Sequence record: PV340561
Direction: 5' to 3' (one strand)
Length of the DNA stretch: 64,000 nucleotides
Origin: Escherichia phage PhiR41_1
In this document: in pieces, positions 19,099 through 47,586 of the stretch
How positions within the stretch are numbered: the first letter of the stretch is position 1
Layout: every line of letters starts with the position of its first letter
Notes under the pieces: generated by a model
Told to the model about the DNA's origin: nothing
Seen by the model: only the letters and a program-made list of their open reading frames with translations
The model's database searches: none
Program-made: the position numbers and the translations under genes

Positions 19099-19130
19099 CT
19101 AAAACAATAGGTATGTAATTACCTATGCTT

Positions 19131-19165
19131 AAGGGTGGGCTATACGCCCACCCTTTTTGTAGGTT
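19131..19165 (+). terminator. intrinsic terminator after capsid gene
   Basis: stem AAGGGTGGGC-tatac-GCCCACCCTT followed by TTTTGTAGGTTTT. Confidence 0.7.
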
Positions 19166-19195
19166 TTAAATATGCCTGTATAGCGAGAAAGCGTA

Positions 19196-19630
19196 ATGAA
19201 ACCAGCAAAAATTCGTTTATTGGAACCGCAATTTTCTGATTATTCGGGAATGTTGTGTGGAGTTAAGTTTGAGAATGGGGTATCCGTTTCCGAGTTACCT
19301 TTTATCGACCAGCAGAGGATTTGTGCATCAATGCGCGCATCAACTGTTGAGGGTAAAAACGTTTCTCCATCTGCTGCATATGGCGAACGTAATGATCTGA
19401 ACGTAGATCAGATTGTTGAGCCATCAGCACCTGACATTGTTCCAATGAAGCGCGGAACGGCAGATGAACCAGCTAAACCAATTCAAACTTTCACACGGGA
19501 AGAACTGGAGTCAATTGCTGATAGTGAGGGTATTGCCGGTTTACGTTCAATTGGGAATAAGATTGGTGTTAAGGCGAAAGGAATTGTCGAAATGATTGAC
19601 GGCATCCTGAAAGCACAAGGCGGTGAGTAA
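19196..19630 (+). CDS. head-associated protein, function unknown
   Basis: ORF in head module. Confidence 0.4.
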   Translation: MKPAKIRLLEPQFSDYSGMLCGVKFENGVSVSELPFIDQQRICASMRASTVEGKNVSPSAAYGERNDLNVDQIVEPSAPDIVPMKRGTADEPAKPIQTFTREELESIADSEGIAGLRSIGNKIGVKAKGIVEMIDGILKAQGGE

Positions 19631-20463
19631 TGGCGCAGATCGACTCGTATCGTAGCGGTGAAGCTGTTTCTCTTTCATTTGCCTTCAACGTGCTGGATAT
19701 CGAATCTGCCACCTACACAGTAAAGGACAGCACCGGGGCTATTCTCGTTGATGGCGAGCCGCTAGAAATTACCAGCGGTCAAATGTCGATTCCGGTTGTC
19801 GTGTCGGCTGAATATAACCAGCTCTCTGAGAAAGAGCGAGATCTGCGGTACGTCATTGTGAAGGCTGTTGCATCGGGCCTGACGCATGAAGAGCGTCAAA
19901 TGTATGTTCTGCTGAATACTTTTGAACTGTCGATACCAGAACAGTCGTTTGCAACTGTCGCTGATGCTCAAATGCAGGCGATCGATATGCTGAATGGGGA
20001 CACTTTGCTGTCGGATGGTGAAGGCTTAATGCGCAAGCGTCTCATTGAGGCTACAAGACGTATTAAAACTTTACCGTTCTCAATCCGCAAAATTCTACGT
20101 ATCGACTTTGACCGATACGATCGCCCTCAAAATATGCTGAATGTGTATGACATTCCGTGGGGAGCAGATGGAGCGTACCGGCATGATTTAGTCGATTGGG
20201 AAAAGATTACTCAGGAGAAGTTTGAAGAGTTCCCTGACTACTTCAAAGAAGCGTTAATGCTAGCCGTTGTTAATGAAGCGTGTGAGATAGCAAATGGCAA
20301 TGATATCGTCGCAGCACGAGAGGATGGCATTTTGTCAGAATCTATCGGTGAAACGACCAACATGTATCGTACCGGTAAATCAGCAAACGTGCATGTTGCT
20401 CGCAGCACCTGGCGTTTACTGATCCGTTATATAGACAATCGTATGATTGTCCGACGTTCGTAA
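19630..20463 (+). CDS. head completion / head-tail connector candidate
   Basis: position only. Confidence 0.4.
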   Translation: MAQIDSYRSGEAVSLSFAFNVLDIESATYTVKDSTGAILVDGEPLEITSGQMSIPVVVSAEYNQLSEKERDLRYVIVKAVASGLTHEERQMYVLLNTFELSIPEQSFATVADAQMQAIDMLNGDTLLSDGEGLMRKRLIEATRRIKTLPFSIRKILRIDFDRYDRPQNMLNVYDIPWGADGAYRHDLVDWEKITQEKFEEFPDYFKEALMLAVVNEACEIANGNDIVAAREDGILSESIGETTNMYRTGKSANVHVARSTWRLLIRYIDNRMIVRRS

Positions 20464-20534
20464 TGTCTTTCTCATTATTTGGTTTTGGAAGCAATAGTTT
20501 TGGCTGGCAATGAGATCGACAACAGGGAGAGAGC

Positions 20535-20879
20535 GTGAATATTTCATGGCAAACAGAAATTGCGATCTACCGCTTTGGCACAAAGAACGTCTACGGTGAA
20601 GCGCAATTGCAGTTCGTCAGGAAGACGAATGTAGGTGTAGTTAAATTCGAACAGAGTAATGAGAGATCGTCAGTTCGTGCTGATAGCTCTGGTAGTCGTG
20701 GCAAGGCGAGTCTGGAGCTGTTTGATGCTGTGTTAGTTGTCCCTTTGGAATCGGCTGTACAACTTGATGATGTACTGATCCTTGAAGGTCAAAAATTAAA
20801 GGTGTCCAGTGTTCATCGCCGCTGGGGGCTACGAGGAAGACCTGGGCATCTTGAAGTAGGGGCGAATATATGGGTCTGA
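20535..20879 (+). CDS. head-tail joining protein candidate (GTG start)
   Basis: GGGAGAGAG RBS before GTG; position. Confidence 0.4.
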   Translation: MNISWQTEIAIYRFGTKNVYGEAQLQFVRKTNVGVVKFEQSNERSSVRADSSGSRGKASLELFDAVLVVPLESAVQLDDVLILEGQKLKVSSVHRRWGLRGRPGHLEVGANIWV

Positions 20880-45410: not shown

Positions 45411-45415
45411 AAAAT

Positions 45416-45440
45416 AAGCGTGGAGAACACCTCCACGCTT
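45416..45440 (+). terminator. hairpin after helicase gene (weak T-tract)
   Basis: AAGCGTGGAG-aacac-CTCCACGCTT. Confidence 0.4.
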
Positions 45441-45557
45441 GATTCATTGGTGAAACAACTTTTCTTTTGCCAAACCACAAAAGAAAAACACATGAGCCTT
45501 TATGTTATATCAACATTTATGTTGGTCATAATATTGCCTGTTAAAAGTGGAATTATC

Positions 45558-46673
45558 GTGAGCGAGCTGAAAGAGCTAATTGCCGAATTAGATTTTGAAC
45601 AATGGTTGGATACTGAAGGTATCGTTTATCGACGTGGAGGTGTGAGTGCTCGCGGTCGTGAAGTGAATATCAAGGAGTGTCCGGTATGCGGCAGCTCCAA
45701 CTGGAAGGTATATTTCAATCTGACCAGTGGCGTCGGCAAATGCTTCGCTGGTGATCATCCCGAAGAGATTCAGTTCAATAAGCTGGTCTTCCTCAAGCAC
45801 TACAGCGGTAAATCACGACGACAGTTCGAGGAATATGTGCAGAACGCCCTTCTTTCCCAGGGGTGGGCACCAAAGAAAGAAGAGCTAGTGCTTGCAAGCA
45901 CAGTCGAGTTAGAGGGGCCAGTTGCACTCCCTCGTCATTACGAGCTTCCTATAGATGGCCGTCTTCCAGACTATCTGGTTGAACGAAACATATCACCTGA
46001 AATGGCAAAGTATTTTGACCTACGATACTGCGTCGAAGGCAAGCACGCTTATGTAGATCCGTATACAGATCAGGTTAAAGGGCAGATATTCGATATGCGA
46101 ATACTGATACCGATTTACGATCTGGATGGGGTAATGAAGACATTTCAGGGACGAGACATTACCGGTACAGCAGAACGCCGCTACCTCTTTCCTATGCAAC
46201 TTCCAGCTTCAGGTAAGTTTCTCTACAACGGCCATAATGCGGTCGGCAAACAGACTGTAGTTGTCTGTGAGGGGGCGTTCGATGTTATGGGGGTTAAACG
46301 AGCTATTTTTGATGAAGAAACATTACGTGATTACGTGGAACCAATAGGAACGTTCGGGATGCATCTATCTGGCAACACCACTCAGGATGCAGAAGATCAG
46401 TTAGGCGCGTTCCTGACGCTCAAGGCGCGTGGGTTACGTAATGTGATCATGATGTGGGATAGTGAAAAGCAAGCTATACGCAACACTATGGCCGCAGCTA
46501 GGCGACTGACCAGTATCGGTCTTAATGTCAAAGTTGCGTGTTTGGGTGAGGAAGGACTCGACCCGGGCGGTGCAACGCCAGAACAAATTATCAAAGCCTA
46601 TTATCGGGCAAAACCGTATACCAAGCAGTTGGAGTTACAAAGCAAGGTTTTGGGCATTAAGGCTCTATCATAA
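45558..46673 (+). CDS. DnaG-like primase (zinc-binding + TOPRIM); start uncertain (ORF track 45420)
   Basis: CPVCGSS...KCFAGDH zinc-ribbon-like, TOPRIM-like VVVCEGAFDVMGV and MMWDSE; GTG at 45558 with upstream GTGGA. Confidence 0.6.
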   Translation: MSELKELIAELDFEQWLDTEGIVYRRGGVSARGREVNIKECPVCGSSNWKVYFNLTSGVGKCFAGDHPEEIQFNKLVFLKHYSGKSRRQFEEYVQNALLSQGWAPKKEELVLASTVELEGPVALPRHYELPIDGRLPDYLVERNISPEMAKYFDLRYCVEGKHAYVDPYTDQVKGQIFDMRILIPIYDLDGVMKTFQGRDITGTAERRYLFPMQLPASGKFLYNGHNAVGKQTVVVCEGAFDVMGVKRAIFDEETLRDYVEPIGTFGMHLSGNTTQDAEDQLGAFLTLKARGLRNVIMMWDSEKQAIRNTMAAARRLTSIGLNVKVACLGEEGLDPGGATPEQIIKAYYRAKPYTKQLELQSKVLGIKALS

Positions 46674-46748
46674 CAATCACCTTTAAAATAAGTATATGAT
46701 TACTTATCTTTCTGTAAAAATACTTTCATCTGTTAGCTAGGAGTTGGT

Positions 46749-47531
46749 ATGAAAGACGAAATTCAGAAATTAGCCTGCGACATCATTGATAAAACTGGTT
46801 TAGAAATCAGCGAGAGCAATCGGCTAGACATCATTGAAAAAGCCGTAAAAACAGCAATGGATCATATCGCCACTCGTTTGGTCGAGATCCCGCTACCGGG
46901 GCTACCTTATCTGAAGGTTAAGTTGTGCGTATGGGGCGAACCTGCACATGCACGACGTTCTGCATTAGTTGTTTTTGTACCCAAAGAAAACTTACGTACT
47001 CTAAAAGTGCAGGTTGGGGCGTGGTTTGATGGCAGAGTCATCTATACAGATACCATTATCTGTCATCCAGGTGACGAACATATTGAAGCCGTCATTCGAG
47101 AATCTATTCGGGCTATGCGCAGTTTAGCTTTGCTGGAAGACAAGCAAAACTTTGAAGATTACTTGCAGTCGGTAAAAGCTGAACCAACATTGTCTCTGAA
47201 AGCCGATTTCGTCACCCCGACAAATCTGTTGGAGGTTTTGATTAATAAAGGGGCTAATGATGCTGTAAACCTAATCAGAGAGAGCGAATATTCGACTCTT
47301 TGGGACATGTGCAAAAGCCAGTTGGATCTGGTGCATATCGTTGTTGATGCGGGGAAGGCATGTGATGGAGTAATGGCGGAATTTGCTGGGAAGATGGTCA
47401 GGATTGCTAACGAATTACCGATGATAGAGCAAGAGGCTAAATCATACGCCACCAATCATGTCACAGAGCTTCTTGCCCCCTATCGCTTAGAAAGCGATCA
47501 GCGCAAGATGATTAGCTGGGGAAGTTGGTAA
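46749..47531 (+). CDS. hypothetical protein (260 aa)
   Basis: ORF with AGGAG RBS. Confidence 0.5.
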   Translation: MKDEIQKLACDIIDKTGLEISESNRLDIIEKAVKTAMDHIATRLVEIPLPGLPYLKVKLCVWGEPAHARRSALVVFVPKENLRTLKVQVGAWFDGRVIYTDTIICHPGDEHIEAVIRESIRAMRSLALLEDKQNFEDYLQSVKAEPTLSLKADFVTPTNLLEVLINKGANDAVNLIRESEYSTLWDMCKSQLDLVHIVVDAGKACDGVMAEFAGKMVRIANELPMIEQEAKSYATNHVTELLAPYRLESDQRKMISWGSW

Positions 47532-47586
47532 GCTCTCTGTGTGTCGTTTTTTACGCAAATAATGATAAGTAAGCACAAGATTATTT

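What the first reader, a model, noticed from the sequence alone, without database searches (positions are those of the whole stretch)
19107..47575. Family-2 palindromic element ATA(A/G)GTA(A/T)GT...ACTTAT upstream of late and replication genes
A second, distinct inverted-repeat motif is found in intergenic regions at 19107-19126, 21733-21752, 28231-28250, 35029-35046, 38125-38144, 43254-43271, 46688-46707 and 47566-47575, with further copies outside this span at 1341-1359, 10346-10364 and 58809-58824. Several copies have perfect 7-bp arms, for example ATAGGTA-N6-TACCTAT. Their placement before structural, lysis and replication genes suggests a second regulon, possibly late activator sites or a phage-specific promoter class. 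Its co-existence with family 1 implies a two-tier transcription programme.
Basis: seen in the sequence. Interest (0 to 1): 0.5.

Follow-up and report, generated by a model that had tools for sequence, protein, structure and literature searches.

The report
Dispersed palindromic operator of a phage-plasmid
A 20-base palindrome sits in front of about two dozen gene blocks of this E. coli phage-plasmid (a relative of Salmonella phage SSU5 and of the plague plasmid pMT1). It is most likely the docking site through which the element's own repressor keeps its killing genes silent while it lives as a plasmid.

Summary
The window is an SSU5-like phage-plasmid. It carries 12 copies (at least 14 bits) of a 20-bp palindrome, consensus ATAAGTAAGT|ACTTACTTAT, against 0.14 expected in shuffles. 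Eleven of the 12 lie in the roughly 10% of sequence that is intergenic.

Whole relatives (SSU5, Cyrano, pPSUO78_2, Klebsiella pJN2-26 and Kp859, Y. pestis pMT1) hold 20-25 copies at orthologous positions. Acinetobacter relatives hold about 27-35 copies of a re-specified version, ATCAGTCAGTACTGACTGAT.

The two arms vary independently, with no compensation, so this is a double-stranded DNA site for a symmetric dimer and not an RNA hairpin. The sites precede early, late and lysis genes alike, so they are not late-specific.

A variant copy lies on the start of transcription of the promoter of an XRE-type helix-turn-helix (HTH) repressor gene (55738-56124, minus strand). Among the candidates tested, this is the only DNA-binding gene that is expressed in lysogens, present in every resident plasmid examined including Acinetobacter, and absent from the virion-isolated SSU5.

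Two near-consensus sigma-70 promoters whose spacer is the palindrome are silent in published lysogen RNA-seq.

Best reading: a dispersed operator family of the prophage repressor, comparable to P1 C1 operators or phiC31 conserved inverted repeats (CIRs). Binding and repression are inferred, not shown.

The parts
1340..1359 (.). Family-2 palindrome TATTGTAAGTACATACCTAT (16.9 bits). It lies directly after an intrinsic terminator and 31 nt before ORF 1391-1798.
   Evidence: orthologous copies in SSU5 (93165) and pJN2-26 (28031)
10346..10365 (.). Family-2 palindrome ATAAGTAAGTGATTACTTAG (23.1 bits). It lies between the divergent helicase gene (minus strand) and the first ParB_N-domain gene, 17 nt before the ATG at 10383. 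A TATAAT overlaps its left edge.
   Evidence: Cyrano copy at 105107
17146..17165 (.). It lies inside the 3' end of the portal gene. Its first 17 bases are exactly the spacer of TTGAAA-17-TATGAT, about 100 nt before gene 17265-18152.
   Evidence: conserved in SSU5 (3544), pJN2-26 (42093) and Cyrano (3527)
19107..19126 (.). Family-2 palindrome ATAGGTATGTAATTACCTAT (26.7 bits). It lies 8 nt after the major capsid gene (18178-19098) and is followed by a strong terminator-like hairpin at about 19131-19160.
   Evidence: orthologous to SSU5 5471
21733..21752 (.). Family-2 palindrome ATAGGTAAGTATACACTTAA (20.0 bits). It lies 4 nt after the upstream stop codon and 49 nt before the tail gene 21802-22539. 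A hairpin follows whose stem is kept by different bases in SSU5 and pJN2-26.
28231..28250 (.). Family-2 palindrome ATAAGTAAGTACTAATTTAC (20.5 bits), between minor tail genes M and L. A hairpin plus T-rich tail follows it.
35029..35048 (.). Family-2 palindrome ATAGGTAGGTACTAACTTAA (22.9 bits), between the tail-tip J-like gene and tail fibre gene 35092-36885.
38125..38144 (.). Family-2 palindrome ATAGGTAAGTGCATACCTAT (27.1 bits), 40 nt before the holin-position ORF. A conserved TGATATAAA block lies about 20 nt downstream.
43254..43273 (.). Family-2 palindrome ATAAGTAAGTAACTACCTAC (22.8 bits), 12 nt before the conserved ATG at 43286. A conserved TTCCAA-17-TATCAT promoter-like block lies upstream, which would place the palindrome at about +6 to +25.
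46688..46707 (.). Family-2 palindrome ATAAGTATATGATTACTTAT (22.3 bits) with a degenerate centre, forming the spacer of TTTAAA-17-TATCTT, 41 nt before ORF 46749-47531. The Cyrano orthologue (CYRAN_34) is leaky in lysogens.
47565..47584 (.). Family-2 site ATAAGTAAGCACAAGATTAT (16.6 bits). The left arm is good and the right arm is weak. It lies before ORF 47587-48069.
58809..58828 (.). Family-2 site ATAAGTAATCACTTACGATA (14.9 bits), between cobT-like and cobS-like genes. A conserved TATATTTATATAAGA block lies downstream.
56151..56170 (.). Variant palindrome TCTGGTAAGTGCTTACCGAT (10.2 bits; the 14-bp core GGTAAGTGCTTACC matches the family). It lies immediately downstream of the -10 of the repressor gene's promoter, so it covers the predicted start of transcription.
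   Evidence: The same block is conserved in Klebsiella pJN2-26 and in Y. pestis pMT1.
56169..56196 (-). Sigma-70-like promoter TTTACA-16-TAATAT reading into the HTH repressor gene.
55738..56124 (-). 128-aa XRE-type helix-turn-helix protein (97% identical to CYRAN_45, annotated 'putative repressor'). This is the proposed binder of the palindromes.
   Evidence: Family and fold: weak Pfam HTH_19/HTH_37 matches and phrog_8 'transcriptional regulator'; the AlphaFold model has a five-helix XRE fold whose nearest solved structures are Stl, C-proteins, SinR, a Salmonella phage repressor and 434 Cro. Expression and distribution: expressed about 10x background in LF82 lysogens; homologues in 961 plasmids; absent from SSU5; present in Acinetobacter phage-plasmids.
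56372..56584 (+). 70-aa ORF divergent from the repressor gene, in the position a Cro would occupy (phrog_2627, unknown function). It belongs to the immunity module and its role is untested.
   Evidence: CYRAN_46 rises about 6 log2 in the macrophage 6-h sample

Best explanation
The family-2 element is the multi-copy operator of the phage-plasmid's lysogeny repressor. A dimer of the 128-aa XRE-type HTH protein (window 55738-56124, minus strand) is proposed to bind each 20-bp palindrome, one monomer per 10-bp half-site ATARGTAAGT.

The palindromes sit at the heads of about 25 lytic transcription units: replication, nucleotide metabolism, head, tail and lysis. Most lie a few bases after the upstream stop codon or terminator and roughly 10-100 nt before the next start codon. 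They either fill the spacer and the first bases of the -10 of a sigma-70 promoter, or lie just downstream of one. Occupancy would therefore block RNA polymerase binding or early elongation and keep the lytic genes silent in the plasmid state. One variant copy at +1 of the repressor's own promoter would give negative autoregulation. Loss or inactivation of the repressor would free all units at once.

Shown: the sites, their symmetry, their placement, their conservation, the parallel change of specificity in Acinetobacter, and the expression pattern in lysogens.

Inferred: who binds, and that binding represses.
For: 1. Non-random and intergenic: 12 sites against 0.14 expected; 11 of 12 in 9.6% of the sequence.

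2. A protein site on double-stranded DNA. The mirrored positions vary independently: 515 pairs observed against 517 under shuffling, and only 7 of 74 arm deviations are compensated.

3. Conserved at orthologous gaps where flanking identity is about 70-85%, in SSU5 and pJN2-26. There are 20-25 copies in each of SSU5, pPSUO78_2, pJN2-26, Cyrano, Kp859 and pMT1.

4. Acinetobacter relatives have the same architecture with a changed half-site (ATCAGTCAGT). A loose consensus match finds 35 places, 27 of which were kept for the logo. Three copies lie in the repressor/cro intergenic region.

5. A palindrome with the family's core lies at +1 of the repressor promoter in E. coli, Klebsiella and Yersinia. 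Two half-matching copies lie upstream of the Kp859 repressor gene.

6. Candidate elimination.
- The HTH gene is the only lysogen-expressed or regulator-like gene tested that is found in all resident plasmids including Acinetobacter, and it is missing from SSU5, which was isolated as a virion.
- The FljA-like gene and the 216-aa ORF have no detectable homologue in the Acinetobacter plasmid.
- The two ParB_N genes are at or near the detection floor in lysogens.

7. The recognition helix is NANN(L/I)SLIKSG wherever the operator is ATAAGTAAGT, even at 45% overall identity. It is RPNVLSMIKSG where the operator is ATCAGTCAGT.

8. Cyrano promoters TTGAAA-17-TATGAT and TTGAAA-17-TATCAT have the palindrome as their spacer. 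Their genes (CYRAN_4 and CYRAN_56) are at background in LB lysogens, and CYRAN_56 rises about 5 log2 in one condition.

9. The site with a degenerate centre (before CYRAN_34) is the leaky one. Site score and downstream expression correlate negatively, rho -0.16 to -0.40, not significant.

10. The position relative to promoter-like blocks varies (spacer, +6 to +25, or upstream), which repressors tolerate.
Against: - No binding or repression experiment exists, and I found no paper on this motif.
- The copy at the repressor promoter is a weak match (10 bits) whose outer triplets differ from the family. In E. coli only one copy lies in the switch region, and no strong copy overlaps the promoter of the divergent 70-aa ORF.
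- Kp859 keeps the same operator with a repressor only 45% identical, so the parallel change of protein and site rests on a single switch, in Acinetobacter. ParB_N genes and many other genes diverge in parallel there.
- In Acinetobacter the arm upstream in the direction of transcription is much better conserved than the downstream arm (71 of 81 against 40 of 81 matches at the outer three positions). That directional feature also fits a promoter element.
- Many sites lack any recognisable -35, and several are followed by terminator-like hairpins, so what drives those genes after derepression is unexplained.
- The drops in RNA level at sites in lysogens can be explained by neighbouring intrinsic terminators.
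- SSU5's lack of the repressor is also what an activator model allows.
Confidence: 0.55

Rival explanations
1. Phage-specific or activator-dependent promoter class. A phage-encoded dimeric activator, or a factor that retargets RNA polymerase, binds the palindrome centred near -19 and turns on promoters that lack a -35. This would resemble P1 late promoters, which carry a 9-bp inverted repeat serving as the binding site for the late promoter activator Lpa.
For: - Most sites have a poor -35, and the right end of the palindrome plus its flank reads TATYAT.
- In Acinetobacter the downstream arm is often replaced by -10-like hexamers such as TATACT, TACAAT or TATTAT, and conservation of the two arms is strongly direction-dependent.
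- Many sites follow terminators, where a new promoter is needed.
- RNA levels jump directly behind some sites (before CYRAN_12, 56 and 60) in one condition.
- P1 is a precedent (PMC10695390; P1 annotation).
Against: - The sites are not restricted to late genes.
- Sigma-70-likeness at the fixed register is equal in sense and antisense.
- The flanks are symmetric in enterobacteria.
- At 43254, and at the dam, thyX and CYRAN_60 sites of relatives, the palindrome ends 1-17 nt before the start codon, so transcription must start upstream of or inside it.
- A dimer covering about -28 to -9 of a 17-bp-spacer promoter would clash with RNA polymerase.
- Near-consensus promoters with this spacer are silent in lysogens, which requires repression.
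- A copy lies on +1 of the repressor promoter.
- No Lpa homologue was found; the best tblastn E-value is 0.18.
Confidence: 0.2
2. A repressor-type operator, or a roadblock like the stoperators of mycobacteriophage L5, bound by a phage-plasmid protein other than the 128-aa HTH. Candidates would be the 70-aa ORF in the Cro position or an unrecognised DNA-binding protein. The HTH protein would then act only at its own promoter or not at all.
For: - The arguments for repression do not depend on the identity of the binder.
- The variant at the repressor promoter differs from the family in its outer triplets.
- Most proteins of the element have no assigned function.
Against: Of 17 lysogen-expressed or regulator-like Cyrano proteins tested, only the HTH protein has a convincing match in all resident plasmids examined, including Acinetobacter. 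The 70-aa ORF has no detectable homologue in Kp859 or Acinetobacter, yet both keep the sites.
Confidence: 0.12
3. Dispersed centromere-like or silencing sites for the two ParB_N-domain proteins (10365-11731). This would resemble the KorB operator (OB) sites of plasmid RK2 or the scattered sop centromeres of phage-plasmid N15.
For: - Both ParB_N genes co-occur with the motif in every lineage, including Acinetobacter.
- A strong site lies directly in front of them (10346).
- Partition sites are often palindromes present in several copies.
Against: - Both genes are at or near the detection floor in lysogens (CYRAN_119 at 5.0 and CYRAN_120 at 9.5, against a background of 9.8), so they cannot silence or partition the plasmid in that state.
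- Only the ParB_N domain is recognised.
- A separate ParA operon with different upstream repeats is expressed.
- This reading does not explain the copy at the repressor promoter.
Confidence: 0.05
4. An RNA-level element. The transcribed palindrome would fold into a hairpin serving as a processing site, terminator or stabiliser, or as the target of an RNA-binding regulator such as the FljA-like protein (5192-5710, minus strand).
For: - The sites lie between co-directional genes and would be transcribed.
- FljA proteins are reported to block translation of fliC mRNA (PMC2652032).
- The window encodes a full-length FljA homologue (Pfam PF03614, E = 1e-68).
Against: - There is no compensation between the arms.
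- No T-run follows the palindrome itself.
- No Rfam family matches.
- The FljA-like gene is absent from the Acinetobacter element, which keeps the system.
- I could not confirm any similarity between the palindrome and the fliC leader: only partial half-site resemblances appear in the E. coli leader.
Confidence: 0.03

Closest known systems
Bacteriophage P1 C1 repressor operators (many monovalent and bivalent operators spread over the plasmid-prophage genome)
   Same: In both cases one repressor of a plasmid prophage acts at many operators scattered over a genome of about 100 kb. The operators lie at the heads of many separate transcription units, including at the repressor gene's own promoter (P1 annotation; PMC10695390).
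   Different: - P1 operators are annotated as 17-bp sites. That they are asymmetric, and that C1 does not have an XRE fold, is from my own knowledge.
- No C1 homologue is present here.
- In P1, late genes are not C1-controlled directly but depend on Lpa. Here the same palindrome precedes early and late genes.
- Binding is shown for P1 and only inferred here.
Streptomyces phage phiC31 conserved inverted repeats (CIRs), bound by the phage repressor
   Same: In both, a palindromic operator involved in autoregulation of the repressor gene recurs in highly conserved copies in intergenic regions across the phage genome.
   Different: The host phylum, the repressor family and the 17-bp sequence all differ. 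phiC31 integrates and is not a plasmid. I made no sequence or protein comparison here.
Mycobacteriophage L5 / cluster A stoperators (gp71 repressor)
   Same: Both have about 25-30 repressor sites per genome, placed in short intergenic gaps or over stop and start codons, in early and late operons, and silencing the prophage (my own knowledge, Brown et al. 1997).
   Different: Stoperators are 13-bp asymmetric sites that work in one orientation and stop elongation. The sites here are symmetric 20-bp palindromes, and several coincide with promoter spacers. Elongation block was not tested, and the RNA drops at sites can be explained by adjacent terminators.
P1 late promoters with the Lpa-binding 9-bp inverted repeat
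   Same: Both have an inverted repeat just upstream of, or overlapping, a -10 hexamer, a missing -35, and multiple copies in a phage-plasmid.
   Different: - P1 has 11 such copies, restricted to late genes and dependent on Lpa.
- Here the copies also precede early genes.
- No Lpa homologue is present.
- The register is not fixed.
- Genes behind near-consensus promoters with this spacer are silent in lysogens.

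Membership tests
Dispersed prophage-repressor operator family (P1 C1 type / phiC31 CIR type) | Many copies of one short site scattered genome-wide in non-coding gaps at the heads of lytic transcription units | tested here: met
   12 copies in the window and 20-25 per whole genome; 11 of 12 intergenic
Dispersed prophage-repressor operator family (P1 C1 type / phiC31 CIR type) | A copy at the repressor gene's own promoter (autoregulation) | tested here: met
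   A variant palindrome lies at +1 of TTTACA-16-TAATAT in E. coli, Klebsiella and Yersinia. Three copies lie in the Acinetobacter switch region. The E. coli copy is a weak match (10 bits).
Dispersed prophage-repressor operator family (P1 C1 type / phiC31 CIR type) | The sites are physically bound by the repressor | not testable with these tools
   Only indirect support: co-occurrence, expression in lysogens, a recognition helix that tracks the operator sequence
Dispersed prophage-repressor operator family (P1 C1 type / phiC31 CIR type) | Genes behind the sites are silent in the lysogen although the promoters are competent | tested here: met
   LF82/Cyrano RNA-seq: genes behind sites are at background, including those behind TTGAAA-17-TATGAT and TTGAAA-17-TATCAT. 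The site with a degenerate centre is leaky. Promoter competence is judged from sequence only.
Dispersed prophage-repressor operator family (P1 C1 type / phiC31 CIR type) | The sites overlap or directly follow promoters | tested here: inconclusive
   Clear at 17146, 46688, 43254 and 56151 in the window, and at Cyrano 3527 and 57446. Many others have no recognisable -35, and there is no sense-versus-antisense bias.
L5-type stoperators | Asymmetric site that works in one orientation relative to transcription | tested here: not met
   The site is a palindrome and both arms are conserved. Arm conservation is direction-dependent only in Acinetobacter.
L5-type stoperators | Blocks elongating RNA polymerase | tested here: inconclusive
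   RNA steps across sites are negative in lysogens (B6 sample, P = 0.002), but intrinsic terminators lie beside most such sites.
P1 Lpa-type late promoters | Restricted to late (morphogenesis and lysis) genes | tested here: not met
   The sites also precede replication, recombination and nucleotide-metabolism genes.
P1 Lpa-type late promoters | Fixed register of the inverted repeat to a -10 hexamer, read in the sense direction | tested here: inconclusive
   TATYAT at positions 17-22 is mirrored on the other strand. The sense-versus-antisense test is not significant. In Acinetobacter the downstream arm drifts towards -10-like hexamers.
P1 Lpa-type late promoters | Presence of an Lpa-family activator | tested here: not met
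   tblastn of P1 Lpa against eight genomes gives a best E-value of 0.18.
ParB/KorB-bound parS or OB sites | The cognate ParB-family protein is produced in the plasmid state | tested here: not met
   CYRAN_119 and CYRAN_120 are at or near the detection floor in lysogens.
Structured RNA element (hairpin, terminator or processing site) | Base pairing maintained by compensatory changes | tested here: not met
   Pairing equals the expectation under independence, and 7 of 74 deviations are compensated. No Rfam hit.
REP/MITE-like mobile palindromic repeats | Repeat unit with extended shared flanks and variable presence between close relatives | tested here: not met
   Only about 20-26 bp are shared. 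The copies sit at orthologous positions in genomes 70-85% identical.

The most novel reading that the evidence does not exclude
The palindrome is a bifunctional promoter-operator cassette. It would carry its own -10 at its outer edge and be read by a dedicated phage-encoded transcription factor during lytic growth, while the prophage repressor competes for the same 20 bp in the plasmid state. A single cis element would then implement both tiers of the programme across the whole SSU5/pMT1/pHCM2/Acinetobacter supergroup, and its specificity would have been rewritten in step with its readers (A to C at two positions of each half-site). If true, expressing the repressor in trans would give immunity to SSU5-type phages, and would be a handle to silence or cure these plasmids, which carry resistance and virulence genes.
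Probability: 0.12. Interest if true: 0.75.

Novelty: new member of a known kind. Interest (0 to 1): 0.55.

Why it matters
SSU5-like phage-plasmids are the largest group of phage-plasmids in enterobacteria (PMC7969092). The group includes pHCM2 of Salmonella Typhi, pMT1/pFra of Yersinia pestis and Klebsiella elements that carry resistance genes. How they stay silent as plasmids and switch to lytic growth is essentially undescribed.

A single 20-bp operator at the head of about 25 transcription units, paired with one small repressor, would be the core of that switch. This gives testable predictions:
- immunity to SSU5 when the repressor is supplied in trans;
- genome-wide derepression when it is removed;
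- a defined change of specificity in the Acinetobacter group.

It also gives a simple sequence signature for annotating transcription units and immunity groups in these plasmids.

Tried and rejected
1. RNA hairpin reading: rejected, because the arms do not covary and no Rfam family matches.

2. FljA-like protein as binder. This was attractive because it is the only annotated repressor near the minus-strand gene cluster. I rejected it because the gene has no detectable homologue in the Acinetobacter plasmid, which keeps the system, and its expression is only about 2x background. My attempt to relate the palindrome to the fliC leader gave only loose half-site resemblances in E. coli. The key FljA papers are not in the library.

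3. The 216-aa ORF (4243-4893): no homologue detected in Acinetobacter and silent in lysogens.

4. ParB_N proteins: silent in lysogens.

5. Fixed-register sigma-70 promoter: there is no sense-versus-antisense difference, and no conserved hexamer outside the palindrome.

6. A roadblock effect read from RNA-seq steps cannot be separated from adjacent intrinsic terminators.

7. A scan of viral contigs for the perfect core returned mostly SSU5-like contigs, plus single matches in unrelated AT-rich contigs that are probably chance. Two contigs with paired AAGT/ACTT tetranucleotide-like palindromes (L021, L072) had no related genes nearby.

8. Hetero-immunity test with Kp859: the repressor is only 45% identical, but the recognition helix and the operator are unchanged, so the test does not discriminate.

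9. Literature searches for the motif, or for SSU5 regulation, found nothing. One 2026 preprint on phage-plasmid promoters could not be opened.

10. An earlier idea that the site at 19107 had moved relative to its relatives was wrong. The window simply lacks the Ig-like decoration gene, and the site is orthologous to the post-capsid site of SSU5.

Full report
**What the window is.** The 64-kb window is part of an SSU5-like phage-plasmid of E. coli. It is 94-98% identical to Escherichia phage CMS-2020a, Cyrano (the pLF82 plasmid of strain LF82) and plasmid pPSUO78_2. It is about 80% identical to Salmonella phage SSU5 and about 79% to Klebsiella phage-plasmids. Most genes lie on the plus strand: ParB_N-domain genes, terminase, portal, capsid, tail, lysis, parA, helicase/primase, integrase, cobT/cobS-like genes and DNA polymerase III alpha. 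A cluster at 3.9-10.3 kb and a few other genes lie on the minus strand.

**Checking the observation.** Read with flanks, the element is a 20-bp palindrome of two abutting 10-bp half-sites, consensus ATAAGTAAGT|ACTTACTTAT, with A or G at position 4. Weaker symmetry reaches about 26 bp.
- A symmetric weight matrix finds 12 sites of at least 14 bits in the window. Dinucleotide-preserving shuffles give 0.14 on average, with a maximum of 2.
- Eleven of the 12 sites lie in the 9.6% of the window that is intergenic. Base-shuffled intergenic segments yield 0.07 sites, and the binomial P is 6e-10.
The base that would create an in-frame stop is changed there, and the copy is conserved in three genomes.

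**Spread and conservation.** Whole genomes of relatives carry the same family:
- 24-25 copies of at least 14 bits each in pPSUO78_2, SSU5 and Klebsiella pJN2-26;
- 23 copies of at least 13 bits in Cyrano;
- 25 copies of at least 12 bits in a more distant Klebsiella plasmid, Kp859;
- 20 copies of at least 13 bits in Yersinia pestis pMT1/pFra.

The copies sit at orthologous gaps although the flanks are only about 70-85% identical, and the palindrome stands out as the conserved block. Typical placement is a few bases after the upstream stop codon, often overlapping it because the motif contains TAA or TAG, or just after a terminator. The next start codon most often lies about 40-50 nt downstream, with a range from about 1 to 130 nt.

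**DNA site or RNA structure.** Mirrored positions of the two arms vary independently. The number of pairable positions equals the shuffle expectation (515 against 517 ± 5). Only 7 of 74 deviations in one arm are compensated in the other. No Rfam family matches. This pattern fits a symmetric protein dimer reading double-stranded DNA and argues against a hairpin.

**A re-specified version in Acinetobacter.** Acinetobacter baumannii phage-plasmids have the same backbone order. One of them (NZ_CP143349) has almost no family-2 sites. Instead a loose match to ATCAGTCAGTACTGACTGAT finds 35 places, 27 of which I kept for the logo, with the same placement relative to genes. That is the same architecture with A changed to C at positions 3 and 7 of each half-site. 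Three copies lie in the gap between the repressor-like gene and the divergent small ORF. The system is therefore old, and its specificity has changed coherently at all sites of a genome.

**Who binds.** I considered every annotated or plausible regulator.
- The FljA-like protein (5192-5710, minus strand; Pfam PF03614) and the neighbouring 216-aa ORF have no detectable homologue in the Acinetobacter element.
- The two ParB_N-domain genes are present everywhere, but they are at or near the detection floor in published RNA-seq of the Cyrano lysogen (PMC9928086, S1 Table).
- The 128-aa XRE-type HTH protein encoded at 55738-56124 (minus strand) sits next to the integrase and divergent from a 70-aa ORF. 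It is 97% identical to CYRAN_45, which that paper lists as the putative master repressor, and it is expressed about 10-fold above background in lysogens.
- Homologues of this HTH protein occur in 961 plasmids of E. coli, Klebsiella, Salmonella, Yersinia, Cronobacter and Acinetobacter.
- Of 17 lysogen-expressed or regulator-like Cyrano proteins, it is the only one with a convincing match in all resident plasmids examined, including Acinetobacter.
- The whole integrase-HTH-small-ORF module is missing from SSU5, which was isolated as a virion yet keeps 24 sites.
- The AlphaFold model (mean pLDDT 75) shows a five-helix XRE domain plus C-terminal helices. Its nearest solved folds, all weak matches, are repressors: SaPI Stl, restriction-modification C-proteins, SinR, a Salmonella phage repressor and 434 Cro.
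- Its predicted recognition helix is NANN(L/I)SLIKSG wherever the operator is ATAAGTAAGT, even at 45% overall identity. It is RPNVLSMIKSG in the Acinetobacter element.

**The repressor's own promoter.** On the minus strand, TTTACA-16-TAATAT (56196-56169) reads into the HTH gene. It is followed at once by TCTGGTAAGTGCTTACCGAT, whose 14-bp core matches the family. The same block is the only conserved part of this intergenic region in Klebsiella pJN2-26, and it recurs in pMT1. Kp859 has two half-matching copies before its repressor gene. Acinetobacter has three copies in the switch region. This is the arrangement expected for autoregulation by the protein that binds the dispersed sites.

**Promoter or operator.** Outside the palindrome, no hexamer is conserved at a fixed distance from it. 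At a fixed register, with the first 17 bases as spacer and the last three bases plus three flanking bases as the -10, some sites are excellent sigma-70 promoters:
- window 17146, TTGAAA-17-TATGAT;
- Cyrano 3527 and 57446;
- SSU5 55695;
- two Acinetobacter sites.

Most other sites have no -35, and promoter-likeness is no better in the sense than in the antisense direction. Elsewhere the geometry differs. At 43254 a conserved TTCCAA-17-TATCAT block lies upstream and the palindrome ends 12 nt before the ATG. At the dam, thyX and CYRAN_60 sites of relatives it ends 1-17 nt before the start codon. At 38125 a conserved TGATATAAA block lies 20 nt downstream. A variable register is usual for repressors and unusual for activators.

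In the Cyrano lysogen, genes behind the sites are at background, including those behind the two near-consensus promoters. CYRAN_34, behind a site with a degenerate centre, is leaky. In the macrophage 6-h sample, RNA jumps by 2.5-3.7 log2 directly behind three sites. Site score and downstream expression correlate negatively but not significantly. RNA drops across sites in lysogens cannot be assigned to a roadblock, because intrinsic terminators lie next to most of those sites.

**What argues for the rival.** In Acinetobacter the arm that lies upstream in the direction of transcription is far better conserved than the downstream arm, which often drifts to -10-like hexamers. Many sites follow terminators, where a promoter is needed. 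Several late-region sites are followed by hairpins whose stems are kept by different bases in relatives. These features tie the element to transcription start regions and leave room for an activator-dependent promoter class, as in P1, whose late promoters carry an Lpa-binding inverted repeat. However, no Lpa or C1 homologue is present, the sites are not late-specific, and silent near-consensus promoters require a repressor.

**Conclusion.** The element is a dispersed palindromic operator family marking the heads of the lytic transcription units of SSU5-type phage-plasmids. It is most probably bound by the XRE-type prophage repressor, which would also autoregulate through a variant copy. It works like the C1 operators of P1 and the conserved inverted repeats of phiC31, and it shares genome-wide intergenic placement with L5 stoperators. 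It differs from each in symmetry, sequence and protein family. I found no description of it in the searchable literature. Binding, the direction of regulation and the transcription start sites remain to be shown.

Noticed in passing
window 452, 936, 2606, 13673, 13701, 41101, 44035 (approximate starts): A second palindrome family, AAGAAAACAAnTTGTTTAAGGAG (core AAACAAnTTGTTT). It sits about 10-35 nt before start codons, directly 5' of the Shine-Dalgarno sequence, for example before parA, the DnaB-like helicase, terS and several small ORFs. There are 10-14 copies per relative genome and few or none in Acinetobacter. In Cyrano the parA operon behind one copy is expressed in lysogens.
   Followed up: partly
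window 48619-48632, 54508-54544 (inverted pair), 60558-60571: A third repeat, TAATGATTCCATAC. At 54508-54544 two copies form an inverted repeat with an 8-nt gap, about 100 nt upstream of the integrase gene (54640-55743). This may be a recombinase or resolution site. Single arms occur at the other two places.
   Followed up: no
window 5192-5710 (minus strand): A full-length homologue of FljA, the Salmonella repressor of phase-1 flagellin (Pfam PF03614, E = 1e-68). It is conserved in SSU5, Klebsiella and pMT1 and is weakly expressed in the Cyrano lysogen. It may let the plasmid turn down host flagellin. It is not the binder of the palindromes.
   Followed up: partly
window 18178-19630: The window lacks the Ig-like decoration gene that follows the major capsid gene in SSU5, Cyrano, pPSUO78_2 and pJN2-26. 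The capsid gene is followed directly by the palindrome, a strong terminator and the next head gene.
   Followed up: yes
window 38165-38175 and 56282-56316: A TGATATA(A/G) block is conserved upstream of the holin-position gene in three genomes. It occurs twice (TATGATATAGAT and TATGATATAAGAT) upstream of the 70-aa ORF divergent from the repressor gene. It may be a distinct -10-type promoter element.
   Followed up: no
window 43200-43250: The block CCCTTCCGTTTCCACTTCCAAAAA is almost perfectly conserved in E. coli, Salmonella and Klebsiella elements upstream of the site at 43254, although the genes upstream of it differ. Its function is unknown.
   Followed up: no
window 20001-40000: Sigma-70-like promoter matches are depleted in the tail and lysis region: 12 found against 27.3 ± 4.8 in shuffles.
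   Followed up: no
window 1-64000: There are no tRNA genes and no Rfam matches in the window, although Cyrano and SSU5 carry one to three tRNA genes between the ligase region and the integrase/cobT region.
   Followed up: yes
window 42232-42999 (minus strand): A 255-aa ORF with a LEM-3-like GIY-YIG nuclease domain occupies the place where Cyrano has CYRAN_30. This is one of the variable insertions next to a palindrome site.
   Followed up: no
L021 11620-11700; L072 2798-2865: Unrelated viral contigs have two closely spaced AAGTAAGTAAGTACTTACTTAC-type palindromes, 46-55 bp apart, in non-coding DNA with no SSU5-like genes nearby. This is probably chance or a different element.
   Followed up: partly
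Cyrano (L086) 40268-40822 (minus strand), CYRAN_43: A 184-aa protein of unknown function is by far the most highly expressed Cyrano gene in lysogens, about 700x background. No homologue was detected in the window, SSU5, pJN2-26, pMT1 or the Acinetobacter plasmid.
   Followed up: partly
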